This document shows positions 2,439-36,420 of a stretch of 64,000 nucleotides of DNA, piece by piece. Below the pieces are notes generated by a model. It was not told where the DNA came from. It was given only the letters and a program-made list of their open reading frames with translations, and searched no databases. How positions within the stretch are numbered: the first letter of the stretch is position 1; each line of letters starts with the position of its first letter. The translations under genes were made by a program, and so were the position numbers. The stretch lies in UHGV virus genome UHGV-0076294. One strand, 5' to 3'. The DNA comes from a virus.

Positions 2439-3812
2439 TTACTCCTCGTCGATTTCAGTGTACCATTTCGCTTTACGAGACAGTATGCGATATTCGACGT
2501 TATCGTATTCAAACACCCAGAAGTAGTTATCGGGATCAGCTTCATCAACGAGTTTCACGACATCCAGACTGGTCTGGTACGGATGGTATTCTTCCGCTGC
2601 TATTAGTGCCTGGAAGAACAATGCTAACCACTCGGTGGTGGATTTTGACATTCGTGCAATGTCTGGGTTCGTTGTTGCAATCAGTGCGTAGTCTGGTAAC
2701 GTCTCGTGTAAGGTATTCTTACGAGTGTCGTTCTCAGGGCCACTGATAACCACCATGTTCAGCGATTTATACACGGTAGGTAAATCGGTAACATCCGTTG
2801 TCGGTTTGCTTACCGTATTACTATTTCTTTCTGCAACAGACTGATCAGACCATTCCCCAAACTTTGTAATGGCTTTGACCCAGAAATCATATGGAAGGAT
2901 GGGGGAATAGAGAGCCGCCACGTCTTCCTCATTCGGTATACCACGGATTTTCCACCCCGGAACCATTGTGAATTTCGTAGTGGTAAAGATCTCAGGGAAT
3001 ACCTTCACCCCAATCGGAACCGTAAAGCTGGAGTTTGCAAGAATATGTTCACGCAACGCTTGCTTTATTTTCGTTGGGTTTTTTCCTGCACGTCCGTAAA
3101 TGATAACCGACATTGGAACAACCAGTGTTGACTCGTAGTTTTCTTGGTCATGCCAGGTGTAGTAGTTAGTTTGGATGGCAGTATACGGGAACCCTGCCAT
3201 TAACTCGTTGATTTTCTTATGGTGTTCGGTAAGGTTAAACCCTTCCATCGCTTTTTCAACGACTGACTTTGTGGCCAAGAATGTGTCGATTGGCTCAATC
3301 GGCATCTGTACTTCGATTTCAAAACCCGTGTAGTCCTGGTCGAAGTCTTCATCCGAGAACCAAACTATGATTTGGTTATCTACATCAGTGTCATCTTGTA
3401 CTTGATCTGCTGTTGCTTCATATTTCCAGCTCACCCAACGTGGGAACCAGTTACTGTTCGTCTGGATCATCGCACCGGACTGAACACCGGAAATGGTTGT
3501 TTGGAATTGACCTAATAATAGGCGCTGGAATTCAAGTTCGTCATTTCTCAGATTCCCCAAGATGGCTTGCTGGTAAATCCATTGAGAAACGGTTAGAATA
3601 TGATCAGAAAACTCGGCTGGAACAACAACCGTCTGTTTTTCTCGTTTAGACGTAAATGTCACCAACTGCACTTGCAGATTGGATTTAGTAAACGTCTGTT
3701 TACTCTTCGCGTACGAGAGGGTCAGATCAGACAGCTCACCTACCGGAGCGGTGACGCCGTCCTGATTGTCAAACAGAGCCGGTATCTGAATAAAACCTTG
3801 TAAGTCTAACAT
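2439..3812 (-). CDS. hypothetical protein
   Basis: The track ORF extends to 3872. The ATG at 3812 (MLDLQGF...) has GGAG 11 nt upstream and avoids overlap with the divergent gene at 3838. 457 aa. Confidence 0.75.
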   Translation of the reverse strand: MLDLQGFIQIPALFDNQDGVTAPVGELSDLTLSYAKSKQTFTKSNLQVQLVTFTSKREKQTVVVPAEFSDHILTVSQWIYQQAILGNLRNDELEFQRLLLGQFQTTISGVQSGAMIQTNSNWFPRWVSWKYEATADQVQDDTDVDNQIIVWFSDEDFDQDYTGFEIEVQMPIEPIDTFLATKSVVEKAMEGFNLTEHHKKINELMAGFPYTAIQTNYYTWHDQENYESTLVVPMSVIIYGRAGKNPTKIKQALREHILANSSFTVPIGVKVFPEIFTTTKFTMVPGWKIRGIPNEEDVAALYSPILPYDFWVKAITKFGEWSDQSVAERNSNTVSKPTTDVTDLPTVYKSLNMVVISGPENDTRKNTLHETLPDYALIATTNPDIARMSKSTTEWLALFFQALIAAEEYHPYQTSLDVVKLVDEADPDNYFWVFEYDNVEYRILSRKAKWYTEIDEE

Positions 3813-3837
3813 AATTAAAAATACTCCGAGGTGAGCA

Positions 3838-4341
3838 ATGGGTTCATTTCTTAAAGTGCTTCCGTTCTTCATTCAGATGTTGATGGAAGCATTTAAACCA
3901 GGAGAAGGAGAGAACGTATCAAGAGCAAACAAGATAATGACTTTAATCATCACGGTCTTGTTATCCTACTCGGCTTTCGTCTCCTATGCGTACGTAGTGC
4001 AGTTTCACAAGCTCGTTACAGTACAATCGCATGATCAATACATGTCGCAATCTTACCAAGAGATGAAGCAAGATCGTGACAAACTGAAAGATGATAATGG
4101 TAGATTATACGACAAGCTCTTTATTTGCCTCGGCCAGAAACCGCCATATGAAAGCGGGTACAGCTCGGTAAAAGAAGACGTCTCTGCCAAAGATTTAACA
4201 CCTAAGAAACCAGAAACTCCTGTTAGCCCAGCTTCAACACCAGAACAACGCAAAGAAGCTTCGGCACGACCTGTTGGTAGTCAAGACGCTAACAGTTTCC
4301 GTCAGGAGATCATAAAGACGTTATCGTCACCTAAGGAGTAA
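3838..4341 (+). CDS. membrane-anchored coiled-coil protein (i-spanin-like topology, function unproven)
   Basis: 167 aa with strong SD GAGGTGA 4 nt upstream. One hydrophobic helix (IMTLIITVLLSYSAFVSYAYVV), then a charged helical segment and a Pro/Ser-rich tail. Confidence 0.75.
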   Translation: MGSFLKVLPFFIQMLMEAFKPGEGENVSRANKIMTLIITVLLSYSAFVSYAYVVQFHKLVTVQSHDQYMSQSYQEMKQDRDKLKDDNGRLYDKLFICLGQKPPYESGYSSVKEDVSAKDLTPKKPETPVSPASTPEQRKEASARPVGSQDANSFRQEIIKTLSSPKE

Positions 4342-14788: not shown

Positions 14789-15088
14789 ATGCGTTATCAA
14801 ACGGAGATTGTGGAGCGCTTAAGCGAAGGTTTAGCCAGCGTCAGTCTGGAAACAGCAGCGGCATTTCGTGAGACTTTCGCTACTTTCTTTCCCGATCGTG
14901 AATCTTTTTGTTTAAAGGTCGGTGAATATTATTCCAAGTTACTCGAACACTACGGTTACCCGCCGGTGAAATTCGACGTACCTGAAAACACCGACGACAT
15001 CAGTTATTGGATTGAAACCCTCGAAGCAGGGACACTTTCCAACTTGCGTAAGGCGGTAGAAAATGAGACTCGATCCAGCGCGGCGTAA
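14789..15088 (+). CDS. hypothetical protein
   Basis: 99-aa ORF, SD TAAGGAG; its 3' end overlaps the next gene by 26 nt. Confidence 0.7.
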   Translation: MRYQTEIVERLSEGLASVSLETAAAFRETFATFFPDRESFCLKVGEYYSKLLEHYGYPPVKFDVPENTDDISYWIETLEAGTLSNLRKAVENETRSSAA

Positions 15089-15731
15089 AAAAGCAGAAGC
15101 TTACGCCTTACAAATCTTAAACCTGGTTGACCCCTCTGGGATTAATGCAGAGGCAGCAAAGAAAGCTTTTGCTCGAATGACAGACGAACAGTTTAATCGT
15201 CTTCGTGAAGGGCTACCGATTTACAACCCGGTTGGCAGCAAAGTTAAAATAGACCACATGCGAAACGTTGAGCTATGTCGTGTTTTAGGTTTGAACCTGG
15301 AACAGCGGTTGTGGTTAACTGAGCCGAAAACGGGTGTTTTCCATCGTACCCGCTACCCACATCTGGTATTGCGCTTGCCTGCGCGTCGTCAAACGCAGAT
15401 GCAAGAAAAGAAAATGGCAGTAGCGAAGAACGACAAAGTTCGTGATAAACTCTCCGGTCAAGTTGTTGGTCCTTCTAAAGCATCTGGTGTATCTTTCCCA
15501 GAAGCGTACATCATGTACTCCGATGGTCACGACTGGACACTGAAAGAGTTTCTGTGGGCGCGTGGGGGTAACGAAGCTTTACAACGTGCGTTCTATCAAT
15601 CGTTACGTCAAACCGGTAAGGGACGTATTGACCTGCCGGGAGCAGAACGTACCAGTTCGAAAGCAACACGTACCTGGTCTGCGTATCTGAAAGCGATGCA
15701 CATTGGTAACAACATAGGCCATCCGTCATGA
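15063..15731 (+). CDS. RNA polymerase beta-subunit C-terminal module (split rpoB-like fragment)
   Basis: 222 aa. MTDEQFNRLREGLPIYNPV, RLWLTEPKTGVFHRTRYPHLVLRL, NDKVRDKLSG, SFPEAYIMYSDGHDWTLKEFL and SAYLKAMHIGNNI align by eye with E. coli RpoB ~1150-1342 ([91 protein letters not shown]). Confidence 0.65.
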   Translation: MRLDPARRKKAEAYALQILNLVDPSGINAEAAKKAFARMTDEQFNRLREGLPIYNPVGSKVKIDHMRNVELCRVLGLNLEQRLWLTEPKTGVFHRTRYPHLVLRLPARRQTQMQEKKMAVAKNDKVRDKLSGQVVGPSKASGVSFPEAYIMYSDGHDWTLKEFLWARGGNEALQRAFYQSLRQTGKGRIDLPGAERTSSKATRTWSAYLKAMHIGNNIGHPS

Positions 15732-17522: not shown

Positions 17523-18335
17523 ATGGATAACGAAGCAAAAGCAAAACTGCAACGAGACGAAGAAGAACGTGCGGGTAAACCGTTGCAAAAACTTTACTGG
17601 GAATATAAAACTCAGATTGGGTGGGAACCTAAAGATTATAAGCTTGCAGTTGCAAGACACATCCTGTCCCCTGATTTCCGCACACGTTCGAAGGCCGTTC
17701 TCGAAGATCGAGTACAACGCATCTCAACGAAACTTACCTCAGGTAACAACCGTGACTTACCAGTTGACCTCACGTGGCGAGGTTTCACGGAAGGGTTAGT
17801 GATTACCGGGGTGGAATCGTTGAGAATCTGTATAACGACTTACCGTGGACGTTTCCAGACAAAAACCATTTCTGAAGTCACCACACGAGTGCGTGACGAT
17901 CTTATCCGCTACGATTTTGAAGACTGTAACGAGAAACCGACGGCCAGTGCTAGTACGGAACTGAATCGTTTCTTCCGAGATTGTGCGGGGACAGCAAAGA
18001 CGATGGAGCACCCCCTTTCGAGACTCCTGTGGACAATCTTTGCGAATATCAAAATGACTTCGGATTGGTGGCATCGACTTTCAACGAACTATGTTAATAA
18101 TCCAGAGAACTGTCTTCCTATCGCTTCTAAACGCAATGACATGCGGCACAATATGCAGCACAACATGCGACTGAAAAAGAAGCTGTCTTGGAAATGGTTT
18201 ATGAGGATACTCAAGGCGATTGATGTGAAGAAATTCGATATTCTGTTGACGTTAAAACGCAAAAACGACAACAAGATTTACGAAGTCGTTCACACGGTTG
18301 ACCTCGAGGCTTATCAATTTCGGAGTACAGAATGA
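17523..18335 (+). CDS. hypothetical protein
   Basis: 270 aa from ATG 17523 (SD AAGGTGA 4-5 nt upstream). The track start at 17520 is GTG. Confidence 0.75.
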   Translation: MDNEAKAKLQRDEEERAGKPLQKLYWEYKTQIGWEPKDYKLAVARHILSPDFRTRSKAVLEDRVQRISTKLTSGNNRDLPVDLTWRGFTEGLVITGVESLRICITTYRGRFQTKTISEVTTRVRDDLIRYDFEDCNEKPTASASTELNRFFRDCAGTAKTMEHPLSRLLWTIFANIKMTSDWWHRLSTNYVNNPENCLPIASKRNDMRHNMQHNMRLKKKLSWKWFMRILKAIDVKKFDILLTLKRKNDNKIYEVVHTVDLEAYQFRSTE

Positions 18336-19606
18336 AACTCGATCAGATAACCGGCCAGATTAACAAAGGTCAATCGGCTATCGACAACTCGGTTAATACC
18401 GCGAAGAATGCGGTTAACCGAGTACAGTCTACGGTAGAGAACGCCGAACGTGGCATTCAGAATACCGTAGATAAAGTCAGCCAGCTTTCCGATCGTGCCG
18501 GTGAAACCTTTAACAAACTCATCAGCGGTGGAAGTGAACTGACCTCAAAAATCGGTAACCTATTCGGCGGTAGTGACATTGCCAGCGTGGGGGGTACCAA
18601 AACAGCAGGCAGCTCCACCTCCGGTGTTTCCCCAGGACAAAAAGTTCCTGGGTTTGCTTCTAACACTAAAGAGACACTACCTGTTCTCGATCCGCAGAAG
18701 CGTGATGTTTCAGAACCTTTCAAAAAGGTTAATGAGGAAGGGCTTAAAGCACTAGGGTATCTGTCACCCGGTGACTCAGGAAGTTTACTGGGCAAAGGTT
18801 GGGACAGCATTTCGTCGCTGAGTGATTCTCTTCTATCAGGAATTGGTACTGACTTCTCCTCCGTGAAGAAGCGTCTCGAAGGAACGCTGAATATCGCAGG
18901 TCAACTGGCTAAGCTTCCTTCAGAAATCAGTCATGAAGTCAACAACTTTATGTCTGAAGTCAACAGTATGCGTTACCAGATAACCTCGGTTATTGATGAC
19001 GTACAACACACGTTTGACAGCTATAAAGACCTTGACGATTTCTTAGCCATCGACAACTTGATTAACAGTTTCAAAGGCAGCGACAGTTTTTCAGCGTTAG
19101 ACATTAACACGTCGTCTGCTTTGATCTACGGTCTGTCTACGAAACTTAACAGTTACGGATTGCCTGCAAAAATCGACCCGATGATTCAGGCTATCAGTGA
19201 CGATCAAGCAAAAGAGGCGCTTTACGGGGAGCTGATGATTCAAGCTGCTGCTACCGGTAACTTGGACTCAACAGAATATTACCTGAACAAACTTCAGGAA
19301 GGTCAGGGCAAACAGATTGCGGAAACCGTGATTCAAAACATCATGGCTAACTTGCGTGTGGAAACCGGTACGAGTTTTAGTACGTACGGTACACGAATGT
19401 TAGCATTATTTAAAGCACTTGATGCCAAATGGGATAAAACGAAAAACGTTACTCCTGAAACTACCGAACTGAAACTTTATACTTACGCAGGCGCTAACGC
19501 GATACAAGCGCTGATGACCACCGAAAAACGTAACTACGTTTTAGCGGCAGGTAGTGTAAGTTATCAGTCTACCGATGAAATCGTGGAAGACTACTTTGCA
19601 ATCTAA
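18332..19606 (+). CDS. hypothetical protein, N-terminal amphipathic-helix repeats and Ser/Gly-rich linker (possible virion/internal protein)
   Basis: 424 aa with an ATGA overlap with the upstream gene. N-terminus NKGQSAIDNSVNTAKNAVNRVQSTVENAERGIQNTVDKV. Confidence 0.75.
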   Translation: MKLDQITGQINKGQSAIDNSVNTAKNAVNRVQSTVENAERGIQNTVDKVSQLSDRAGETFNKLISGGSELTSKIGNLFGGSDIASVGGTKTAGSSTSGVSPGQKVPGFASNTKETLPVLDPQKRDVSEPFKKVNEEGLKALGYLSPGDSGSLLGKGWDSISSLSDSLLSGIGTDFSSVKKRLEGTLNIAGQLAKLPSEISHEVNNFMSEVNSMRYQITSVIDDVQHTFDSYKDLDDFLAIDNLINSFKGSDSFSALDINTSSALIYGLSTKLNSYGLPAKIDPMIQAISDDQAKEALYGELMIQAAATGNLDSTEYYLNKLQEGQGKQIAETVIQNIMANLRVETGTSFSTYGTRMLALFKALDAKWDKTKNVTPETTELKLYTYAGANAIQALMTTEKRNYVLAAGSVSYQSTDEIVEDYFAI

Positions 19607-19616
19607 GAGGCCGGAT

Positions 19617-20438
19617 ATGTCCGAACCACAATTACTGCGCTCCGTATTAAAGAAAATCAAAAGTCAAAGTGAAGACATTCAATCACTGGCTTTAACGCTC
19701 GGTTATGCGCCGGGTGACTTACGTTCTAAATCCTACGTGAACGCGTCAAGCATTGTACTCACGCCTGATGAGCTCCTTGCTTATGTCCTATACCTGAGAC
19801 GGTTAGGCTATGTTTGTGCTTTACCTGAACAACTCCCGTTTACCGATGGGGTGAACCACATCAACTTTTACTCCAACGGTCGTACTACCGTGGGTAAGAT
19901 GATCAGTAACTTCTACGCGAAACCTGACGGGTCAAAATTCGACACGATACACGGTCAGTTCCTGACGTTAGAAGGTTACTATCACTACTTGCGTATCGTT
20001 GACTACATGTTACACATGGGTTACTCGATTAAAACGATGGGACGTCTGGAGACTGAATTTCCTGATATTCTTCGTTTACGTACGTTAACGGGTGCTGAGT
20101 GTATTCAGTTAGGTCGTCGATTAAAAGCGGCAATTTACGGGAAAACGGATTACCGTCCCGGTGAGTTTAGTAGCTACGCGACTGGCGCATTTAAGAATGC
20201 GCTGCTGCGTAAGTTGCACCTGTTGCAATACGACGGGTCTTGTTTAGGTAATACCCTGTCTTACTGCCATTCGATGAATCTTCCGTTCTTGCATTATTAC
20301 GTCATGAACGGTCGGGTGATTACACCACCACATTCTGAATGGCTTCCTAATCTGGTGGTTTCTATTGTTGAAAACATCGACTATAACGACTCGACGTTCG
20401 ATATTACGGACGTCAGTGAACGTATGGGATTAATCTAA
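19617..20438 (+). CDS. NADAR (YbiA/DUF1768-like) domain protein with N-terminal extension
   Basis: 273 aa from ATG 19617 (SD AAGAGG). HINFYSNGRTTVGKMISNFYAKPDG..IHGQFLTLEGYYHYLR aligns with E. coli YbiA INFYS..GDFSNFAAWPIKVDGKTWPTSEHYFQAQK. Downstream, QLGRRLK...AFKNALLRKL resembles ARMGRN..MRKALRAKF. Confidence 0.6.
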   Translation: MSEPQLLRSVLKKIKSQSEDIQSLALTLGYAPGDLRSKSYVNASSIVLTPDELLAYVLYLRRLGYVCALPEQLPFTDGVNHINFYSNGRTTVGKMISNFYAKPDGSKFDTIHGQFLTLEGYYHYLRIVDYMLHMGYSIKTMGRLETEFPDILRLRTLTGAECIQLGRRLKAAIYGKTDYRPGEFSSYATGAFKNALLRKLHLLQYDGSCLGNTLSYCHSMNLPFLHYYVMNGRVITPPHSEWLPNLVVSIVENIDYNDSTFDITDVSERMGLI

Positions 20439-21097
20439 TGGGATTGTTCGATACCCTAGCGCGGCTGGATAAAGCGCAGGAAGAAGAAATCATTCGTGTT
20501 GCTGGTGAGTCCATTAAACACGAAGTCGAAAAGGAATACTGCGTTTGGGTAAAACCTACGCAAGCGGGATGGGATTGGCTCCACGCACAAGAAGCCAAGA
20601 TGTTCATGGACATTCTCATGCCGATAGAAGGTGGGCGTCGTCGTATCCGTATTAAAGAAGACGGTACGGCACAGCTAACGCTTAAGCGTAAGTTCCAGGA
20701 CGGAAAGGTTGAAGAGAATTCGGATATCGGTATTAGTTCCGCACTCTCTTTTTACAAAGACGGTTATTTGGCACACCTGGTGAAACGTATTCACTTAGAG
20801 CCGGGTGAATTAGCCGAGAAAGGGGCTAAGCATTGGGATATTGATATTTTCACTATCACCACCGGACACCCTGCCATTGAAGTTTCAGCTGACTTTAACG
20901 ATCTCATCACCGAGATGCGTAGTAGCACCAGCGTTGGTGACTGGGTGAAAGTTGAACTGGAAGTCGAACGTTACGAGATTGCAGATGTGCTGTCTGTAAT
21001 TCCGTTTGAGTTTGACGGCCATATTCCGGCTACGCCGAAAGATCCTGAAGACCAAGAATATCTTCGTGATTACTGGGATTCAGTTACCCGTATGTAA
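20438..21097 (+). CDS. hypothetical protein; weak CYTH/triphosphate-tunnel-like pattern
   Basis: 219 aa with a TAATG overlap. HEVEKEY, RRRIRIKEDGTAQLTLKRK, VKRIHLEP..HWDIDIF and VKVELEVE follow the order of CYTH strand motifs (ExExK, RxR, T.K, K.R, D.f, ExE). The first motif is off-register. Confidence 0.3.
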   Translation: MGLFDTLARLDKAQEEEIIRVAGESIKHEVEKEYCVWVKPTQAGWDWLHAQEAKMFMDILMPIEGGRRRIRIKEDGTAQLTLKRKFQDGKVEENSDIGISSALSFYKDGYLAHLVKRIHLEPGELAEKGAKHWDIDIFTITTGHPAIEVSADFNDLITEMRSSTSVGDWVKVELEVERYEIADVLSVIPFEFDGHIPATPKDPEDQEYLRDYWDSVTRM

Positions 21098-21101
21098 CAC
21101 C

Positions 21102-21140
21102 TACCCTACTCCCAGACAGGAGTAGGGTATTTTCATTTTT
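21102..21140 (+). terminator. rho-independent terminator; stem identical to the one at 1777
   Basis: TACCCTACTCC cagaca GGAGTAGGGTA, then TTTTCATTTTT. Confidence 0.8.
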
Positions 21141-29286: not shown

Positions 29287-32200
29287 TTAACCCGCACGTC
29301 TAACGTTAAGCTGTCGTGCTGGCTGTTCAACGGACATTTGTCGTGATGCTGAGCCTGCTGGTGCCATAGGTTGGGTCGATACGGTGTTTTGTACCGGCTG
29401 CGGACGTTGTTTAAGAATCGTGACAATCTCTCTGAGATACCCCGCCGATTCTTTCGCAACAGCCAACTGCTGGACACTAATCGGATCACCGCTACTGAGT
29501 GTAGGCCCGTTTTGTGCATCAGAAGTAACCGCAGGTGCCGGTTTACTCGTTGCTGCTACGCGCTGCACAGCGCCTTCTTTCACCTTCTCGACATCTTCTT
29601 CAGGCAACCCTTCGTTTCTAGCTCCAGCCGCAACGGTCTCCGCAATCGTAGAGGCGTCGCCGCCAGCACTACTACCGCCAGGTGACGGTACTGCCGGACC
29701 ACCACTGGTTGCAGCTTTGACATTGTCTGCACCCATCGCACCTTTCTCTGCTAACGCATCGTCACGACGCGCAGCATTCGATGCGGGCAAGTTATCCGTC
29801 GCTCCAGAAATTGATGGATCGTTAGCTGCTCCTGCTGCTACCGCTGGAGAGGAGGCAACCGCAGGCGTTAGCCCTTTCACCATGTCTTTCGTTGAAGCTG
29901 GGTTAGCCGCAATTTCGTTTGTCGCCACAGCACCCATACGGCGGTTCAGTTCATTAATAACTTCGCCAACAGTACGAATACGAACAATCTGTTCGCCTCG
30001 CATTTCGTAGAAGACTCCCTTATTACCTCTAAGGATTTGAGGAGTAATACCTTCTGCTTTGTCGGCTGGCATGTTCGGATTCTGCCGCCATGCATTAAGG
30101 AACTTCTTACCACCGCCTGGACCCAAGAAGTGATACAGATACGCAACAGCCGGGGGCGGTTCTACACCACCCAGGTCTTTCTGCGCCTGCATGATATTAT
30201 CACGAATAAACTGTACCCCGAGGATGGTATTTGCCCACGGGTCATACTGGTTTACTTGCGGAATACCGTACCGACGAGAATACCCCTTCATCATTCCAGA
30301 CCACGTACTGTCGATGAACTGGAACAACCCTGCTGCTGACGCACCTGGGTTCTTGACGCCGTATCTGAAACCAGATTCAGCTTTCGCCATCGCAATCGCA
30401 ATCGCAGGCGGAACACCTAAGGTATTTGCGACATCTGCAATCATTGCTTTAACGCCTTCTACGTTAGGTGTCTTACCACTACCCAGTTTACTGATTGGAT
30501 ATTTCTCAGCCAAGGTTTTGTAATCACCTTCTTTGACGTCCCCGAGTTTAATCCCGGATTGGCCCGTAGAGAACTTCGCGTAATTGCTGATCCCCATCTC
30601 ACCCACAACTTGAGATAAGTCACCCGGTGTACCGTAAGACGACCCACCGTTTGGCAAGTACCCATCGTTAGACGCTGTACCCCAATCAACGACACCTTTA
30701 AAGCGTTCTTTGCCATCTTCGTCGGTTTGGTACATTCTCGTCGCACGATCGGCTTTCTGCCACTTCGCACGTTTACCTGCTGCGGGAGTAGAGCGCAGGG
30801 TGTTACGAACAGCCAGGTCAGGTTCTTTTGACAGTTCTTTCAGGTTGGCAAGTTCAGTAGCAACAGAACCTGCATCAGTGTTTGCTTCCTCGCCTAGCGG
30901 GTTGAATGGAATCTCCCACACGGACTGTCGAATACCGCCCTTCATGTTGTAAGCGCCACGAATCATCAACGCCAATTCGTACATGAACCCACCGGATACT
31001 TTCAATTCGGTAGGGTCTGCTTGCGGAATGTAACGTTTCAGACCAACGACGTAGGTCATATACGCCGGTAAGAAACGGTTGTAGAACCAGTTCTTACAAC
31101 GCTCCTCTTTAGGACCACCTATCAAGTCAGGCGAGATAACCGCAATGGCTTCTTTCCAGTTGCCTTTATAGGTACAGTTCTTCACATCAATGTCTTTCAA
31201 CACGTTCTTCTCTAACAACGTGAAAAGATTACGCGTTGTTTGGTTGATAGTAACCGCACCGTAGGTTTTCCACCTGACCGATTCCAGGTCTTCCAAATCG
31301 CTTTTCTTCGGTAATGAATGCCAGTCAACTTGGATTTGAACCTGCTCAGTCCCGTCTTCCCATCCTTCAACCTTCGCAACTTTCTCGTTACGTTCAGCAT
31401 CCGCATTCGCCAATACCTGACTGGTTTCAGCAACGGACGCAATTTTGTGGCCTTCGACAGCGTCACGCATACCTGAACGTTGTTTCCGTTTGTCGTCAGT
31501 ACGCATGTTGATTGACCGCCACACACGTTCCTGTGCTTCGACAACCTCTTCCCCTGACAAGAACTCTGCCGGAGTAAAGGTAACGAAATCCCACGCTTTA
31601 GAGAACCAACCCTGGTTAACTTTACGCGGGTCAGTCAACGAACGGAATTCCGCAGAATCTTTACCCATCTTCATTTTGTTGTAGAGGGTAATCATATCCG
31701 CTTTCGACACTTTCTTCGGATCACCAACATCTGCCAAAGCGATATCGTTATCCATAGACTTCAGTGCTGAAATCCAACGGAGGTAAATCGGTGCGAAACG
31801 TTGTAGCATAAACGCAGTAAATGCTAACATCTCACCACGTTCTTCCAAGTTTACACCAAACCCTTCTGCGAGTTTCTTCACGTCTTCGGAAGACAAGCCA
31901 CGTAATTGTGCTTCACCCCCTTCGGTATACGAGACGTAAGGTTTCAAAGCGTCTTCTAAATAACGGGCTTTCATACCGTCTTCAGAAGACCACTGGTCGT
32001 AGTCACGGAAACCGTATTGTGCCAGACGCATATAGTCGAGGTACTGCGCTTTCACACGGGTAGCGCATTTATACGCCCAATAACCCAGACCAGCGGCAGT
32101 CGCACCGATCACAATTGCAGGCCAACCCACCGCAGCTACCACCGTAGATGCAGCTGAGGCTACCGCAGTCACCGCCGGAACCGCTAAACGCTGTACGGCA

Positions 32201-35200
32201 AACTTACCAACATTCCACGCTGCTTTACCGATGAACCCGGTAGGTTTAAAAATACCCCACTTCGCAACTTTACCCAGTATGGAACCCACCGTACCTAAGA
32301 TACTCACGATTGGTCCTACTAACGGTAGCCCTTTGAGGAAGTCCATCACCCCGCCTTTACGTCCTTTCTGTTCGGCGGATTTCTTGGCTTTCTCTTCTTC
32401 CTTAGAACGTCTACGACGACGGAAGAATTGGAAGTAGTCGCGTTTTTCATCATTGGCTGCCGGTTTGTTACGTTGTCCGAACTTACTGAACATCGTACGA
32501 ATCAAGCCATCAGGCGCACCAGCACGTTCCGCAGAGTCACGCATGGTGTTAAACCAGGACATTTCCTGGAGGTTAACCATCCGGTTCAAACGTTCCAGTA
32601 ATGCTGAACCAACACTCTTCGCTTTCTGCTTACCTTTGTTGATAACGCGCCCTGCGCTATCCGTTGCGGTTTCGAAATCCTCCTTCGCTGCGTTAATCAC
32701 GCGTGTTGGAGAAACCTTACCACGGGCGTATAAGTGTTGGCGGTAAAACTCAGCAACGTCATCGTCACGACCTGCTAAACGAGACTCCGCCCGATAACGT
32801 GTACCGATATCGTAGCGTGGATCACGGAAGCTATCCACCGTTTCGCCAAAGCGTCCACGGAAACGGTCAAACCACCCTTTACCCGCAGCACCCCAACGAG
32901 ACAGTCTATCGCCAACACCCTGACGGAAACGTGAGAATCGGTCACGTTGTCTGCCTCGCCAATCCCGGAAACTCTGGAAATAGTCTTTAAACCCATCGCG
33001 GAAATCCTTAACGCGGTTAAGCATCCCTTTGATAGATTTCGACCCAACGTTTTTCTCCAGTTGCTCCGTCCAGGATTCATCTTCAGGCTCACCATCTAAA
33101 CGACGGTTAAGGAGTTTATAGATACGAATCAGGATATGGTTGGTCTTACGGCCATTCGACCAGGAGAACATGCTGAAACCGCCACCAGAACCCCCGTCCT
33201 TACGATTCTGCCACCACCGGGTAAGCGGGTTGTCGGTCGCTAACTCTTTGAATTTCTCAAAGCCACGTTTTGCATTGTTCCACAAACGAGCAGGCATTCC
33301 GGTTACACGGGAAATCATGCTTTGTAAACGTGTTTTCTCACTGCCTTCAGGAATCTCGTTAAGCCACTCACGTGCTTTCTCAAAGATAGACGCTGCTCTT
33401 GGTGAAATTAGACCAATAAGTTTCTTCGGTAAGTTAACAGCTTTGTTTACCGCTGTACCTGCTTTACCGGAGATATACTGGAACAGGGCCTGGAGTTTAC
33501 CGCCTTTATAGAAGCGCAGTTTACCCGCAGCCGCTAAGTCCGCCGCTGCGAGAATCAAGTTCCCGGCTTCGTCAACAATATCACGACCCAGCTTAATGTC
33601 GTCTAACGAGCGGAGTTGTACCAGTTTGTTGGTTTTAGGGTCAGCCTGATAATACTCACCTGCCTCTAAACGGTTTCCTTGTAAAACAACATTGCCTTTC
33701 TCGTCGTAGATGTCTCGAACACCAAGAACGCCTTTCCCGAACGCTACTGCTGAATTCCAGCCTGTGGACAGCGTACCAGTAACTAAACCTTTCAGTCGTT
33801 CAAAAACACCTGGACCGTCAGAAGACCCACCGGAGAACTTCCCACGGATAAAACTGCCCAGTGACTGTAAACGCCCTTTTCCTCTCAGGAACATGTTCTT
33901 CGCAAAACGACCAGCGCCCGTACCGGTGTCCCAAAGTACGCCCGCCCAACGACGGAACAGCCCGCTTTCACCAAGCACAATGCGCTTACGTTTGCGTTTG
34001 TTGCCGGTACTACCCGCGTCTTCGGATGCGACACCCTCACCGTCACGACCACCACCTAAGCTTGCCAACAGAATACCTTCTTCATCCATGTTCTTGACAT
34101 GTTTCAGAATTTCCTGCACGGTGTTGGATTCGGATTTGTTACGGATAGCATCAACGATTCTATCAAACTGTTGCTCTAAACCCGCATTAGTGTCAGGCCG
34201 TTCGCTTAACAGTTCAACAAAGTTGGTGGATTTTTCACCGTAGAGGACAGCAGCGAGTTGTCGTGCTGACAGCCCACGGCCACCACGTCCACCTTTACCT
34301 CTAACGGTGTCGATAGTCGACTCATCACCGGTTACGGAAGCGTCTACACCTAAACGACGCAAATAGTCACCTAACGCAGAACCGTTTTTCAGTTTGCGCT
34401 GGATTTCTTGTTCACGCGTTAACGAACGACCAGAGCGAGTTTTCCCCATGGCCAGGTCGTTGTATAGCGTATACGGATCGTTAATGTCTTTATCTACATC
34501 AAACCGATCGTTCTTCGCATCGTACTTAAAGATACCTGCGTCACGTAACGCATTCTCACCGTAGATAATTGAAGCTTCGTCTACCGTGTTTTGACGTGCA
34601 CGAATTGTTGACTGAATAGCTGAAATCTTACCAGCAATCTCATTGCTAAGTTCATGATGCCCACCAACCAGTTCCGCAGAACGGGCTTCTAAGACCGCCT
34701 GAATCGCTTCTACCGCGTTTGCATTCATGTAACGATACATGTGCATCGGGTCTTTCAGCAGACTGCCTACGTCGAATGCCTTACCTTCAGACGCACGGGA
34801 TTCGATATAGTCCGCCAGCGCCTGGCGAGTTTTCGAATCCAGAGTTTTGTCTTTGTCGATAAAGTCAACGGTTTCGTTAATGTACTGCTGTAAACGTTTA
34901 CGCTGTTCGTCATTAGCAACTGCCTTACGTACGCGATTGCCAATAACTTTACGATCCACCATACCTCGCGTGGTCAGGTCATAAACCTGATCGTGGTGTT
35001 CGCCATATCCACGACGAATAGATTTGTTAATCTCCGTCAGCAAGGTCGGGATGACTTCCGTGATGCTAAGATATGCTTTACGGTCGAACTTCGCTGCTGC
35101 TGATAACGCCTCTGCTGAACGTTCTTCTAAAGCTAATCCCTCACGACGCAGCGGTGTCACTAACCCCATCTCGTGCATTAAACGGAAGACAGTGGCCAAT

Positions 35201-36420
35201 GGACCATCTATCTCACCAGCTATCGCTGAGTTAGAGATAGAAGATAAGTTACCGAACCCGTAGCGTGCCAACTGAAGCCGTTTCATGACTTCTGGGTTCT
35301 TTTCTAACTCACTGCGTGTCCAGTTCTGTAAACGTTCTACTTGCGGTTGTAAGAATCGTTTTGCTAACCAACCACCGGCAAACCCTGCGACTTTACCTCG
35401 GCTATTCGTACGACGACGTTCTGGCGACAGTGTAGAACTGTCTTCCATGTCGAAGTCGTCTTCCTGACCCATTGACAGAACTTGTTCTAATAACCCACGT
35501 CCGTCACTGAAGATATTCGAAATCTTTTTCTTCGCGTTCTCACGGATTTGTTCAATGAACGAATCTGCGTAACGTAAGGGGTTCATCCATTCAGCGGCTT
35601 TACGTTTTACGTTAGCCCAACGAATTTCAGAGAATTCCTCTTTTGCATAATCCGGCAACGCGGTGTTTTTAACAATCGCTTCAAGTGCCGGAGTGTTACG
35701 GCTAAACTCGTCCTGTTTAAGTTTAGCAATATCTTGCAATGCGAATAACGTACGGTATTGCAGCTCTAGCTGTTTACGCTGAACGTTAAGCATCACCCCG
35801 CGACTTAAACTGGTCGTCAGGTTAACGTCTTTCGCAATACCGATAACCGTCTGGAACAGCGCATCGGACTTCATGTCCTTGATGGTGTCACGAAGACGGT
35901 CTTCTACCATTCCTTCCTGAACTTCACGTTGTTGTTCAGGTGTTTGTGGGGTACCTGCAAAAACAGTGTCTAACTCACGATCCATTAACGCTTGTTTAGG
36001 ATCGTAATTCCCGTAATCGTACTGGTCGCTTTTCGCCCATTTATCGATCTTACGGGTTACGCTGTCAGGCAAATACCGTTTTAGGGTTGGGCCTAATTGA
36101 CGAGCTTGTGCCTTCACCACGCGGGAGGTCTTTTCAATCTCGTCTTTCGTATGGGCCAGAATGTCTTGACCTGCGGCTTTGACGTTCTTATAACCTTCAT
36201 AAGCGTCAGACGCCGGTTTTGGCATTCCTTTTAAAATGACCTGATCACGTTTATTTTCGGGCCAGATAGTCGACAATGCCGACTTACGGGCAGCACGAAA
36301 TGTGTCCATGACCGGGTTACGCGATTGGTCTTGTTGACGAGGGGGCTCATCAAAATCGTCCCAGTCGTCCATGTTATCAAGATCGATTTCATCGAAATCG
36401 TCTTTACCTTTTTTAGCCAT
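29287..36420 (-). CDS. giant virion protein with lytic transglycosylase (SLT) domain; tape-measure/cell-puncturing lysin candidate (phiKZ gp181-like)
   Basis: 2377 aa. Acidic N-terminus, central hydrophobic cluster, Arg/Phe-rich repeats, SLT block AMAKAESGFRYGV..AAGLFQFIDSTW..YDPWANTILGVQFI, and an Ala/Ser/Gly/Pro-rich tail. Confidence 0.85.
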   Translation of the reverse strand: MAKKGKDDFDEIDLDNMDDWDDFDEPPRQQDQSRNPVMDTFRAARKSALSTIWPENKRDQVILKGMPKPASDAYEGYKNVKAAGQDILAHTKDEIEKTSRVVKAQARQLGPTLKRYLPDSVTRKIDKWAKSDQYDYGNYDPKQALMDRELDTVFAGTPQTPEQQREVQEGMVEDRLRDTIKDMKSDALFQTVIGIAKDVNLTTSLSRGVMLNVQRKQLELQYRTLFALQDIAKLKQDEFSRNTPALEAIVKNTALPDYAKEEFSEIRWANVKRKAAEWMNPLRYADSFIEQIRENAKKKISNIFSDGRGLLEQVLSMGQEDDFDMEDSSTLSPERRRTNSRGKVAGFAGGWLAKRFLQPQVERLQNWTRSELEKNPEVMKRLQLARYGFGNLSSISNSAIAGEIDGPLATVFRLMHEMGLVTPLRREGLALEERSAEALSAAAKFDRKAYLSITEVIPTLLTEINKSIRRGYGEHHDQVYDLTTRGMVDRKVIGNRVRKAVANDEQRKRLQQYINETVDFIDKDKTLDSKTRQALADYIESRASEGKAFDVGSLLKDPMHMYRYMNANAVEAIQAVLEARSAELVGGHHELSNEIAGKISAIQSTIRARQNTVDEASIIYGENALRDAGIFKYDAKNDRFDVDKDINDPYTLYNDLAMGKTRSGRSLTREQEIQRKLKNGSALGDYLRRLGVDASVTGDESTIDTVRGKGGRGGRGLSARQLAAVLYGEKSTNFVELLSERPDTNAGLEQQFDRIVDAIRNKSESNTVQEILKHVKNMDEEGILLASLGGGRDGEGVASEDAGSTGNKRKRKRIVLGESGLFRRWAGVLWDTGTGAGRFAKNMFLRGKGRLQSLGSFIRGKFSGGSSDGPGVFERLKGLVTGTLSTGWNSAVAFGKGVLGVRDIYDEKGNVVLQGNRLEAGEYYQADPKTNKLVQLRSLDDIKLGRDIVDEAGNLILAAADLAAAGKLRFYKGGKLQALFQYISGKAGTAVNKAVNLPKKLIGLISPRAASIFEKAREWLNEIPEGSEKTRLQSMISRVTGMPARLWNNAKRGFEKFKELATDNPLTRWWQNRKDGGSGGGFSMFSWSNGRKTNHILIRIYKLLNRRLDGEPEDESWTEQLEKNVGSKSIKGMLNRVKDFRDGFKDYFQSFRDWRGRQRDRFSRFRQGVGDRLSRWGAAGKGWFDRFRGRFGETVDSFRDPRYDIGTRYRAESRLAGRDDDVAEFYRQHLYARGKVSPTRVINAAKEDFETATDSAGRVINKGKQKAKSVGSALLERLNRMVNLQEMSWFNTMRDSAERAGAPDGLIRTMFSKFGQRNKPAANDEKRDYFQFFRRRRRSKEEEKAKKSAEQKGRKGGVMDFLKGLPLVGPIVSILGTVGSILGKVAKWGIFKPTGFIGKAAWNVGKFAVQRLAVPAVTAVASAASTVVAAVGWPAIVIGATAAGLGYWAYKCATRVKAQYLDYMRLAQYGFRDYDQWSSEDGMKARYLEDALKPYVSYTEGGEAQLRGLSSEDVKKLAEGFGVNLEERGEMLAFTAFMLQRFAPIYLRWISALKSMDNDIALADVGDPKKVSKADMITLYNKMKMGKDSAEFRSLTDPRKVNQGWFSKAWDFVTFTPAEFLSGEEVVEAQERVWRSINMRTDDKRKQRSGMRDAVEGHKIASVAETSQVLANADAERNEKVAKVEGWEDGTEQVQIQVDWHSLPKKSDLEDLESVRWKTYGAVTINQTTRNLFTLLEKNVLKDIDVKNCTYKGNWKEAIAVISPDLIGGPKEERCKNWFYNRFLPAYMTYVVGLKRYIPQADPTELKVSGGFMYELALMIRGAYNMKGGIRQSVWEIPFNPLGEEANTDAGSVATELANLKELSKEPDLAVRNTLRSTPAAGKRAKWQKADRATRMYQTDEDGKERFKGVVDWGTASNDGYLPNGGSSYGTPGDLSQVVGEMGISNYAKFSTGQSGIKLGDVKEGDYKTLAEKYPISKLGSGKTPNVEGVKAMIADVANTLGVPPAIAIAMAKAESGFRYGVKNPGASAAGLFQFIDSTWSGMMKGYSRRYGIPQVNQYDPWANTILGVQFIRDNIMQAQKDLGGVEPPPAVAYLYHFLGPGGGKKFLNAWRQNPNMPADKAEGITPQILRGNKGVFYEMRGEQIVRIRTVGEVINELNRRMGAVATNEIAANPASTKDMVKGLTPAVASSPAVAAGAANDPSISGATDNLPASNAARRDDALAEKGAMGADNVKAATSGGPAVPSPGGSSAGGDASTIAETVAAGARNEGLPEEDVEKVKEGAVQRVAATSKPAPAVTSDAQNGPTLSSGDPISVQQLAVAKESAGYLREIVTILKQRPQPVQNTVSTQPMAPAGSASRQMSVEQPARQLNVRRAG
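30061..30423 (-). other. SLT (goose-type/Slt70-like) lytic transglycosylase domain inside the giant protein
   Basis: Catalytic Glu in AKAESGF is encoded at 30376-30378 (residue 2015). Followed by GLFQF and the Y..N motifs typical of the family. Confidence 0.8.

What the first reader, a model, noticed from the sequence alone, without database searches (positions are those of the whole stretch)
19617..20438. NADAR (YbiA-like) domain protein: candidate reversal enzyme for ADP-ribosylation-based defence
HINFYS...ISNFYAKPDG..IHGQFLTLEGYYHYLR (19857-19994) matches the signature N-terminal half of NADAR/DUF1768 proteins (E. coli YbiA INFYS..FSNFAAWPIKVDGKTWPTSEHYFQAQK, from memory). NADAR enzymes have been reported to remove guanine ADP-ribosylation installed by DarT-type toxins, so a phage copy is a plausible counter-defence gene. 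This copy has an ~80-aa N-terminal extension and a divergent C-terminal half: the usual WG.G region is not evident, and the position after the conserved Glu is Gly rather than His.
Basis: partly seen in the sequence, partly recalled or inferred. Interest (0 to 1): 0.55.

Follow-up and report, generated by a model that had tools for sequence, protein, structure and literature searches.

The report
Divergent NADAR-fold enzyme in jumbo phage
This jumbo-phage gene, annotated everywhere as hypothetical, encodes a very divergent member of the NADAR family of enzymes that strip ADP-ribose off DNA bases, so it is a plausible but untested phage counter-measure against ADP-ribosylating bacterial defences such as DarTG1.

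Summary
Window 19617-20438 (+) is a real 273-aa gene (dN/dS 0.11), and the quoted motif lies exactly at 19857-19994.

That test is invalid, though, because T4 gp30.3 (AdfN), a proven NADAR, also misses PF08719.

More sensitive methods agree on NADAR:
- A 104-sequence family profile hits PDB NADARs by sequence (E 4e-6 and 2e-4).
- hhalign gives 95.4% probability against YbiA and 98.1% (E 1e-13) against the gp30.3/AdfN family.

Conserved positions map onto the NADAR active site: E119, R126, R167, K199 and H226. H226 is the histidine typical of gp30.3-type phage NADARs. The missing WGxG motif and the Gly after the Glu are also features of T4 AdfN.

Relatives are fused to Macro, SLOG, DUF4326 and nuclease domains.

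The host phage is closest to Erwinia phage Asesino, a nucleus-forming chimallivirus. That group already has a macrodomain anti-DarTG2 factor.

Verdict: a new, unannotated member of a known kind. Enzyme activity and the anti-DarT1 role are inferred, not shown.

The parts
19617..20438 (+). CDS of 273 aa (stop included): the NADAR-like protein, orthologue of Asesino gp246 and SPN3US_0224
   Evidence: dN/dS is 0.11 against the L009 orthologue. PHROG 652, unknown function, E 9e-67.
19605..19610 (+). Shine-Dalgarno-like AAGAGG, 6 nt upstream of the ATG; overlaps the stop of the upstream gene (19604-19606)
   Evidence: Read from the sequence.
19617..19835 (+). N-terminal extension, residues 1-73: a small alpha/beta unit (H5-16, H21-27, E30-32, H50-62, E65-67). 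It varies in length across the clade and is absent from the 150-190 aa relatives.
   Evidence: Nothing in the PDB matches it.
19836..20384 (+). NADAR (YbiA-fold) domain, residues 74-256
19845..19874 (+). First-strand motif DGVNHINFYS (residues 77-86). It aligns with YbiA IINFYS. D77, G78, H81 and N83 are near-invariant and specific to this family.
19905..19913 (+). SNF motif (S97 N98 F99), aligned with YbiA S30 N31 F32 and T4 S18 N19 F20
19971..19994 (+). EGYYHYLR. E119 is invariant in 104/104 relatives and aligns with the catalytic Glu (PnNADAR E43, YbiA E48, T4 E36). R126 aligns with the Lys seven residues on (K50/K55/K43).
   Evidence: Residue roles are from PMC11543638 and PMC11825919.
20112..20117 (+). 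G166 R167, aligned with the NADAR 'GR' motif (R79, a pyrophosphate contact in PnNADAR)
20211..20213 (+). K199, conserved in 98/104 relatives, aligned with YbiA K104
20292..20300 (+). H226 Y227 Y228 at the start of the last beta-hairpin. H226 (101/104) aligns with the invariant His of the gp30.3 family, the position held by Glu in YbiA-type and Asp in DarG1-type NADARs.
   Evidence: PMC11125620.
20340..20342 (+). W242 (97/104), at the start of the last core helix. It is family-specific and lies where canonical NADARs have the D..WGxG loop and helix.
   Evidence: Equivalence to W133 is not established.
20438..21097 (+). Downstream 219-aa gene whose ATG overlaps the target's stop codon (TAATG), so translation is probably coupled. 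Orthologue of Asesino gp247. Function unknown.
21102..21139 (+). Intrinsic-terminator-like hairpin (11-bp stem, then a T-run) that probably ends the transcription unit

Best explanation
The gene encodes a divergent NADAR-superfamily (YbiA-fold) N-glycohydrolase. It belongs to a large clade with no Pfam model, found mostly in phages, whose closest characterised relatives are the gp30.3-type phage NADARs (T4 AdfN).

The proposed mechanism is inferred by homology. The domain binds an ADP-ribose moiety N-linked to a nucleobase. Binding uses the conserved SNF loop, R167 and K199. The ribose-base bond is hydrolysed with E119, R126 and the last-strand H226. This would remove ADP-ribose placed on guanine in phage DNA by host DarT1-type ADP-ribosyltransferases and restore replication and transcription.

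The 75-residue N-terminal extension would help with substrate recognition or localisation. That is speculative.

The enzyme would complement the macrodomain AdfM (anti-DarTG2) that relatives of this nucleus-forming phage already carry.

Shown here: the fold, the homology, the conservation of active-site positions, purifying selection and the operon context. Inferred: catalysis, substrate and the defence system countered.

For: **Sequence.**
- The family profile A3 hits 8bau at E 3.8e-6 and YbiA at E 1.8e-4 in the PDB.
- hhalign gives 95.4% / E 1.8e-8 against YbiA over 136 columns.
- hhalign gives 98.1% / E 1.1e-13 against the gp30.3 family over 137 columns.
- That is better than gp30.3 against YbiA, at 96.9% / E 1.6e-10.

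**Active-site positions**.
- E119 is invariant.
- Position 126 is Arg or Lys in all 40 jumbo-clade sequences. A gp30.3-family member, Ec_Makalu_003, also has Arg there.
- R167 is present in 40/40 jumbo-clade sequences, K199 in 98/104 relatives and H226 in 101/104.
- H226 aligns with the gp30.3 invariant His.

**Known activity of relatives.** T4 AdfN and other NADARs hydrolyse guanine-ADPr, and AdfN counters DarTG1 (PMC11825919, PMC11125620, PMC11543638).

**Domain fusions of relatives.** They are fused to Macro (weak hit), SLOG/YAcAr, DUF4326, PD-(D/E)XK, a metallophosphoesterase and a virion RNA polymerase. This is the ADP-ribose-processing neighbourhood described for phage NADARs (PMC9503650, PMC7824862).

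**Phage context.** The nearest phage, Asesino, forms a nucleus (PMC11724907). The nucleus alone does not protect against DarT2, and chimalliviruses need AdfM (PMC13309987).

**Evolutionary rate.** The gene is 46% identical to its Asesino orthologue, whereas its two flanking genes are 59% and 64% identical.
Against: - There is no biochemical or genetic data for any member of this clade.
- No curated model hits it: Pfam PF08719 and PF08010, NCBIfam and PADLOC are all negative. A YbiA HMM also misses it.
- Foldseek against the PDB found nothing.
- The jumbo clade alone aligns poorly with YbiA (7% probability).
- The D130/W133 'D..WGxG' pyrophosphate-binding motif of canonical NADARs is absent.
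- The Lys-equivalent position 126 is basic in only 38/104 of the wider family.
- The C-terminal residue equivalences come from profile alignment, not from a structural superposition.
- YbiA and T4 AdfN hydrolyse guanine-ADPr in vitro yet fail to rescue DarT1 toxicity on their own (PMC11125620). NADAR homology therefore does not guarantee anti-DarT1 function.
- Iyer et al. argue that most phage NADARs target small ADPr-derived signals instead (PMC9503650).
- No DarT or ART gene, or other ADPr-related gene, was found among the 10 neighbouring ORFs.
Confidence: 0.55

Rival explanations
1. It is an active NADAR-fold glycohydrolase whose substrate is a small ADP-ribose-derived molecule rather than DNA. 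Candidates are cADPR isomers or other Thoeris/TIR-type immune signals, ADPr-1''-phosphate, and RNA-repair by-products. It would blunt NAD+-based signalling immunity.
For: [quoted passage not shown] Relatives of this protein show such fusions: SLOG/YAcAr, a weak Macro hit, DUF4326 and a metallophosphoesterase. The canonical pyrophosphate-binding D..WGxG motif is replaced, which suggests an altered ligand.
Against: Every NADAR assayed so far, including the closest characterised family (T4 gp30.3), hydrolyses guanine-ADPr on DNA (PMC11125620, PMC11825919). No NADAR has yet been shown to degrade an immune signal. Fusions to PD-(D/E)XK nuclease, Pol III alpha and virion RNA polymerase point to nucleic acids.
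Confidence: 0.17
2. It reverses ADP-ribosylation of a different macromolecular target. Examples are RNA bases, cytidine or other bases, or modifications made by the phage's own or another host transferase. In that case it is not specifically an anti-DarT1 factor.
For: NADARs have recently been reported to reverse cytidine ADP-ribosylation and to act on RNA ADP-ribosylation (abstracts of PMC12945103 and PMC11833690). In a nucleus-forming phage, cytoplasmic mRNA is more exposed than DNA. The family-specific conserved residues D77, H81 and W242 could reflect a different substrate.
Against: There is no direct evidence. No transferase gene is linked to it in the window. The AdfM precedent shows that DNA inside the phage nucleus is reachable by DarT (PMC13309987).
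Confidence: 0.13
3. It is a metabolic N-glycosidase like E. coli YbiA, acting on riboflavin-pathway or other nucleotide intermediates as part of the phage's nucleotide-metabolism region. Alternatively it is a catalytically dead structural or regulatory protein that merely keeps the fold.
For: YbiA is a characterised N-glycosidase of riboflavin intermediates (cited in PMC11543638). The gene lies a few kb upstream of thymidylate synthase. It has no hit to any curated model, and the Lys-equivalent is lost in much of the wider family.
Against: The catalytic Glu is invariant in 104/104 relatives and the last-strand His is conserved in 101/104, which argues against a dead enzyme. The protein is closer to gp30.3/AdfN than to YbiA. 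SPN3US gp224 is not mentioned in the main text of the virion proteome study. No riboflavin genes are nearby.
Confidence: 0.1
4. The resemblance to NADAR is a chance match of a short motif, and the protein is unrelated.
For: Pfam, NCBIfam, PADLOC and Foldseek-PDB all gave no hit. The jumbo-clade profile against YbiA gave only 7% probability.
Confidence: 0.03

Closest known systems
T4 gp30.3 / AdfN (Pfam PF08010 Phage_30_3): gp30.3-type phage NADAR, a DNA ADP-ribosylglycohydrolase that counters DarTG1
   Same: - Best profile-profile match: 98.1%, E 1.1e-13, over the full 152-aa protein.
- Both have the SNF loop, an 'LEG' catalytic Glu followed by Gly, a basic residue seven positions on, a G-(R/K) motif and an invariant His in the last strand.
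- Both lack the D..WGxG motif.
- Both are orphan phage genes with no adjacent toxin.
   Different: - There is no PF08010 hit, and the profile alignment shows only about 17% identity.
- This family has its own near-invariant DG..H.N.YS, HYY and W242 motifs.
- The query carries a roughly 75-aa N-terminal extension and an insert between the catalytic helix and the GR helix.
- It sits in a nucleus-forming jumbo phage rather than a T4-like phage.
- Its activity is untested.
E. coli YbiA and P. nicotianae NADAR (Pfam PF08719; PDB 2B3W, 8BAU)
   Different: Only 16-17% identity. PF08719 does not detect it. The last-strand Glu (E125) is replaced by His. The D130/W133 WGxG loop is absent. It has an N-terminal extension.
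DarG1 (BC4488-type NADAR antitoxin of DarTG1; G. lovleyi, PDB 8BAT)
   Different: No adjacent DarT1 gene. It has His where DarG1 has the catalytic Asp. No relation between the two N-terminal extensions could be shown.
AdfM (chimallivirus macrodomain anti-DarTG2 factor, e.g. Asesino gp217, PhiKZ gp104)
   Same: The proposed job is the same kind: enzymatic removal of DarT-installed ADP-ribose from phage DNA, in the same phage lineage (PMC13309987).
   Different: It is an unrelated fold (macrodomain) with thymine-ADPr specificity. The AdfM orthologue would lie just outside the left end of this window.

Membership tests
NADAR superfamily (YbiA fold) | YbiA-like alpha+beta fold: a core helical bundle flanked by two small beta-sheets | tested here: met
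NADAR superfamily (YbiA fold) | Statistically significant sequence or profile relationship to accepted NADAR families | tested here: met
   The family profile hits 8bau at E 3.8e-6 and 2b3w at E 1.8e-4. hhalign gives 95.4% to YbiA and 98.1% to gp30.3. For calibration, gp30.3 against YbiA gives 96.9%.
NADAR superfamily (YbiA fold) | Conserved catalytic Glu and the Lys seven residues on (PnNADAR E43/K50; T4 E36/K43) | tested here: met
   E119 is invariant in 104/104 relatives. Position 126 is Arg (33) or Lys (7) in the jumbo clade, but basic in only 38/104 of the wider family.
NADAR superfamily (YbiA fold) | Charged or polar catalytic residue in the last strand (Glu in YbiA, Asp in BC4488/DarG1, His in gp30.3 phage NADARs) | tested here: met
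   H226 (101/104) aligns with the invariant His of the gp30.3 family and lies at the start of the predicted last hairpin. The equivalence comes from profile alignment, not 3D superposition.
NADAR superfamily (YbiA fold) | D130/W133 'D..WGxG' ADP-ribose pyrophosphate-binding loop | tested here: not met
   It is absent from the query and its family. It is also absent from the active T4 gp30.3 family, so it does not define the whole superfamily.
NADAR superfamily (YbiA fold) | ADP-ribosyl-guanine (N-glycosidic) hydrolase activity | not testable with these tools
   Needs biochemistry.
Pfam PF08719 (NADAR domain) | Score above the gathering threshold of the curated HMM | tested here: not met
   0 Pfam families at E<=10. 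A YbiA-clade HMM also misses it. None of 41 homologues carries a precomputed Pfam domain. T4 gp30.3 likewise does not hit PF08719.
Pfam PF08010 (Phage_30_3 / gp30.3, AdfN-T4 family) | Score above the gathering threshold of the curated HMM | tested here: not met
   No hit at E<=10, although profile-profile similarity to an 8-member gp30.3 alignment is 98.1%. It is a sister clade, not a member.
AdfN (functional class: phage anti-DarT1 NADAR) | Removes DarT1-installed ADP-ribose from DNA and restores phage growth on DarTG1 hosts | not testable with these tools
   Only homology and lineage precedent are available (PMC11825919, PMC13309987).
DarG1 antitoxin of DarTG1 | Encoded next to a DarT1 ADP-ribosyltransferase | tested here: not met
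   Ten flanking ORFs have no ART or DarT hit in Pfam or PHROGs. The context is a phage operon conserved in Asesino and SPN3US.

The most novel reading that the evidence does not exclude
This clade has no Pfam model, and the profile search found 759 cluster representatives at E <= 0.001, counted at the 50% identity level. It has its own invariant set of residues (D77, G78, H81, N83, E119, H226-Y-Y, W242). It may be a functionally distinct NADAR lineage with a substrate not yet assigned to NADARs, such as an ADPr-derived immune signal or an RNA or other base adduct. In chimalliviruses it may be imported into the phage nucleus, or delivered with the genome, as a second ADP-ribose eraser alongside AdfM.
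Probability: 0.2. Interest if true: 0.6.

Novelty: new member of a known kind. Interest (0 to 1): 0.4.

Why it matters
Phage NADARs that erase DarT1 marks (AdfN) were described only in 2024-2025. They were found in T4-like phages and in a few T5-like and Vequintavirinae phages. For nucleus-forming jumbo phages, only a macrodomain anti-DarTG2 factor (AdfM) has been reported, together with the finding that the phage nucleus is a leaky shield.

If this gene is active, it would be the NADAR counterpart for guanine ADP-ribosylation in that lineage. It would also give a function to a large protein family (PHROG 652 and its 150-190 aa relatives in Ackermannviridae, vibriophages and crAss-like virion RNA polymerase proteins). 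That family is currently 'hypothetical' in every record seen and is invisible to Pfam, NCBIfam and PADLOC.

There is a practical lesson too. A PF08719 scan is not an adequate test for NADAR membership.

Tried and rejected
**Searches that found nothing**
- Pfam, NCBIfam and PADLOC scans of the protein: no hits.
- PHROGs gives only an unknown-function family.
- The 7-sequence clade profile against PDB sequences: nothing. The broader 104-sequence profile was needed.
- The jumbo-clade profile against YbiA by hhalign: 7% only.
- Foldseek against the PDB: no significant hit.
- Megablast of the locus against phages: no match.
- Neighbouring genes: no Pfam function and no PDB relatives.

**Things that were unavailable**
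- The AFDB50 fold library was not available.
- Supplementary tables of the NAD-ADPr survey and the AdfN paper are not held. I therefore could not check whether those authors already list this family as NADAR.

**Literature checks that came back empty**
- SPN3US gp224 and Asesino gp246 are not mentioned in the main text of the virion-proteome or Asesino cell-biology papers. There is no evidence on packaging or localisation.
- The DUF488 literature search was uninformative.

**Ideas considered and dropped**
- A second NADAR or a paralogue in the window: none.
- A link between the N-terminal extension and the DUF488-N3a gene found next to short homologues: no similarity.

**Not possible**
- A residue-level 3D superposition on 8BAU, because model coordinates are not exposed.

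Full report
**1. The observation**

An ORF runs from 19575 to 20438 on the + strand. The likely start is the ATG at 19617:
- an AAGAGG ribosome-binding site lies at 19605-19610;
- the upstream gene stops at 19604-19606;
- the closest orthologues begin with the same MSEPQ.

This gives a 273-aa protein. The quoted motif (HINFYS ... ISNFYAKPDG ... TLEGYYHYLR) is residues 81-126, nt 19857-19994, exactly as stated.

Against an 83%-identical orthologue from a 225-kb metagenomic contig, dN/dS is 0.11. It is therefore a real gene under purifying selection.

The gene is the penultimate member of a co-directional cluster:
- The upstream gene ends 11 nt before the target's start.
- The target's stop codon overlaps the ATG of a 219-aa downstream gene.
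- That downstream gene is followed by a strong terminator-like hairpin at 21102-21139.

**2. The genome it sits in**

The window comes from an undescribed jumbo phage.
- Its conserved genes are about 75% identical at the DNA level to Erwinia phage Asesino and relatives.
- Gene order matches Asesino gp221-gp260 and SPN3US gp216-gp235.
- The target is the orthologue of Asesino gp246 (46% identity) and SPN3US_0224 (44%). Both are annotated 'hypothetical protein'.
- Asesino is an experimentally confirmed nucleus-forming chimallivirus (PMC11724907).

**3. Curated-model searches fail**

- Pfam gives no family at all at E<=10.
- NCBIfam and PADLOC give nothing.
- PHROGs gives only phrog_652, 'unknown function'.
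- None of 41 homologues carries a precomputed Pfam domain.
- An HMM built from 33 YbiA-clade NADARs does not detect the ORF even with filters off.

That criterion is not valid, however. T4 gp30.3, which two groups have shown to be a NADAR-fold DNA ADP-ribosylglycohydrolase (AdfN; PMC11825919, PMC11125620), also fails to hit PF08719. It matches only PF08010.

**4. Sensitive searches agree on NADAR**

(b) *Sequence.* An exhaustive profile search found 759 cluster representatives at E <= 0.001. Most are 145-190 aa single-domain proteins sharing DG.xHIN.YS ... LSNF ... EGYW/Y.W/YL ... G(R/K) ... K ... LP..HYY ... W. None of the 10 sampled carries a Pfam NADAR or Phage_30_3 domain. Nine have no Pfam domain at all, and P0102 has only a C-terminal PD-(D/E)XK nuclease domain.
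- A 104-sequence alignment of this family hits PDB NADARs by plain hmmsearch: 8bau at E 3.8e-6 and YbiA at E 1.8e-4.
- hhalign gives 95.4% / E 1.8e-8 against a YbiA alignment over 136 columns.
- hhalign gives 98.1% / E 1.1e-13 against an 8-member gp30.3 alignment over the entire gp30.3 length.
- For calibration, gp30.3 against YbiA, two accepted NADAR subfamilies, scores 96.9% / E 1.6e-10.

This clade is therefore at least as close to gp30.3 as gp30.3 is to YbiA.

**5. Active-site mapping**

I combined the HMMER and hhalign alignments with the residue roles reported for PnNADAR, E. coli C7 DarG1 and T4 AdfN (PMC11543638, PMC11825919).

| Canonical position | This protein | Conservation |
|---|---|---|
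| YbiA I17-S21 (INFYS) | I82-S86 | N83 104/104, Y85 103/104 and S86 101/104 in the wider family |
| S30-N31-F32 | S97-N98-F99 | 102, 98 and 96 of 104 |
| Catalytic Glu (Pn E43 / YbiA E48 / T4 E36) | E119 | 104/104 and 40/40 |
| Lys seven residues on (K50 / K55 / K43) | R126 | Arg 33 / Lys 7 in the jumbo clade; basic in only 38/104 of the wider family |
| G78-R79 | G166-R167 | R in 40/40 of the jumbo clade; R or K in 75/104 |
| K104 | K199 | 98/104 |
| Last-strand Glu / Asp / His | H226 | 101/104; aligned to the invariant His of gp30.3 |

One gp30.3-family member (Ec_Makalu_003) also has Arg at the Lys position.

The literature states that a His at the last-strand position is the hallmark of gp30.3-type phage NADARs (PMC11125620).

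Three things really are different here:
- family-specific near-invariant residues (D77, G78, H81, Y227, Y228, W242);
- an insert between the catalytic helix and the GR helix;
- a roughly 75-residue N-terminal alpha/beta extension. It is longer (about 130 aa) in other jumbo-phage orthologues and absent from the short relatives.

I could not superpose coordinates, so the C-terminal equivalences are alignment-based.

**6. Context and fusions**

The ten flanking ORFs carry no ART, Macro or other ADP-ribose-related domain. They include a virion RNA polymerase beta fragment, proteins of unknown function and thymidylate synthase. There is no second NADAR or paralogue in the window.

In more distant jumbo-like contigs, a 192-aa version sits at the syntenic position. 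It is preceded by a gene with a DUF488-N3a domain.

Multi-domain relatives of the family are fused to:
- a macrodomain (weak hit, below threshold);
- SLOG/YAcAr (DprA-like) domains;
- a PD-(D/E)XK nuclease;
- a calcineurin-like phosphoesterase;
- Pol III alpha plus DUF4326;
- an N4/crAss-type giant virion RNA polymerase protein.

These are the architectures the Aravind group described for phage 'NADAR' domains in NAD+/ADP-ribose conflict systems (PMC9503650, PMC7824862). That group's sensitive searches probably already count this clade as NADAR, but I could not verify this because the supplements are not held.

**7. Mechanism**

*Best-supported reading (confidence about 0.55).* It is an active NADAR-type N-glycohydrolase that removes ADP-ribose from nucleobases. 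The most likely substrate is guanine in phage DNA modified by DarT1-type toxins, making it an AdfN-like counter-defence.

The lineage precedent is strong. Chimalliviruses, including Asesino (gp217), encode the macrodomain AdfM, which erases DarT2 marks. The phage nucleus alone does not keep DarT out (PMC13309987). The AdfM orthologue would lie just beyond the left end of this window. The gene also diverges faster than its flanking genes: 46% identity against 59-64%.

*Against this reading:*
- There are no data on any member of the clade.
- YbiA and T4 AdfN hydrolyse guanine-ADPr in vitro without rescuing DarT1 toxicity (PMC11125620).
- The pyrophosphate-binding WGxG loop is missing.
- The Lys-equivalent is not conserved across the wider family.

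*Rivals:*
- a small-molecule ADPr-signal hydrolase (0.17);
- another macromolecular ADPr substrate such as RNA or cytidine (0.13);
- a metabolic or inactive protein (0.10);
- chance resemblance (0.03).

**8. Novelty and verdict**

Phage NADARs as anti-DarTG1 enzymes are known. [quoted passage not shown] This is therefore a new, unannotated and highly divergent member of a known kind, not a new kind of system.

Its value has three parts:
- It assigns a testable function to a large family of hypothetical proteins.
- It predicts a NADAR partner to AdfM in nucleus-forming phages.
- It shows that PF08719 scans miss whole NADAR clades.

Interest 0.4.

Noticed in passing
L004:5297-6004 and L008:5196-6008 (distant jumbo-phage-like contigs): The short (about 192 aa) homologues of the target are immediately preceded, with overlap, by a gene carrying Pfam PF22751 (DUF488-N3a). 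That gene has no counterpart next to the target in this window, and it shows no similarity to the target's N-terminal extension.
   Followed up: partly
Relatives P0078, P0087, P0115, P0102, P0122, P0139, P0181 (one search hits): The NADAR-like domain occurs fused to several other domains: a weak macrodomain, SLOG/YAcAr, PD-(D/E)XK nuclease, Pol III alpha plus DUF4326, a metallophosphoesterase, and an N4/crAss-type giant virion RNA polymerase protein. The last suggests delivery with the genome in some phages.
   Followed up: partly
L003:10308-10766 (T4 gene 30.3): The experimentally proven NADAR enzyme T4 gp30.3/AdfN does not hit Pfam PF08719, NCBIfam or PADLOC. It hits only PF08010. Curated NADAR models therefore miss whole active clades.
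   Followed up: yes
window 21102-21139 (+): There is a strong intrinsic-terminator-like hairpin (11-bp stem, 6 G-C pairs, then a T-run) right after the 219-aa gene that is translationally coupled to the target. It probably marks the end of the transcription unit.
   Followed up: no
window 18332-21097: The target is 46% identical to its Asesino orthologue (gp246). Its two flanking genes are 64% (gp245) and 59% (gp247) identical, and a nearby virion protein (window 2439-3872) is 82% identical. The NADAR-like gene is the fastest-evolving of the set.
   Followed up: partly
window 29287-36420 (-): This is a giant 2377-aa ORF. Residues about 1993-2060 resemble the Asesino gp218 transglycosylase, and the syntenic giant gene in L008 carries an SLT domain. 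It is probably a virion-associated, cell-wall-degrading giant protein.
   Followed up: no
window 15063-15731 (+): A 222-aa ORF matches the virion RNA polymerase beta-subunit fragment (PHROG 3233; orthologue of SPN3US gp218 and Asesino gp240). This is typical of the split multisubunit RNA polymerases of chimalliviruses.
   Followed up: no
left of window position 1 (not in the window): By synteny with Asesino, the macrodomain anti-DarTG2 gene AdfM (gp217) should lie 2-3 kb beyond the left edge of the window. No homologue is present inside the window.
   Followed up: yes
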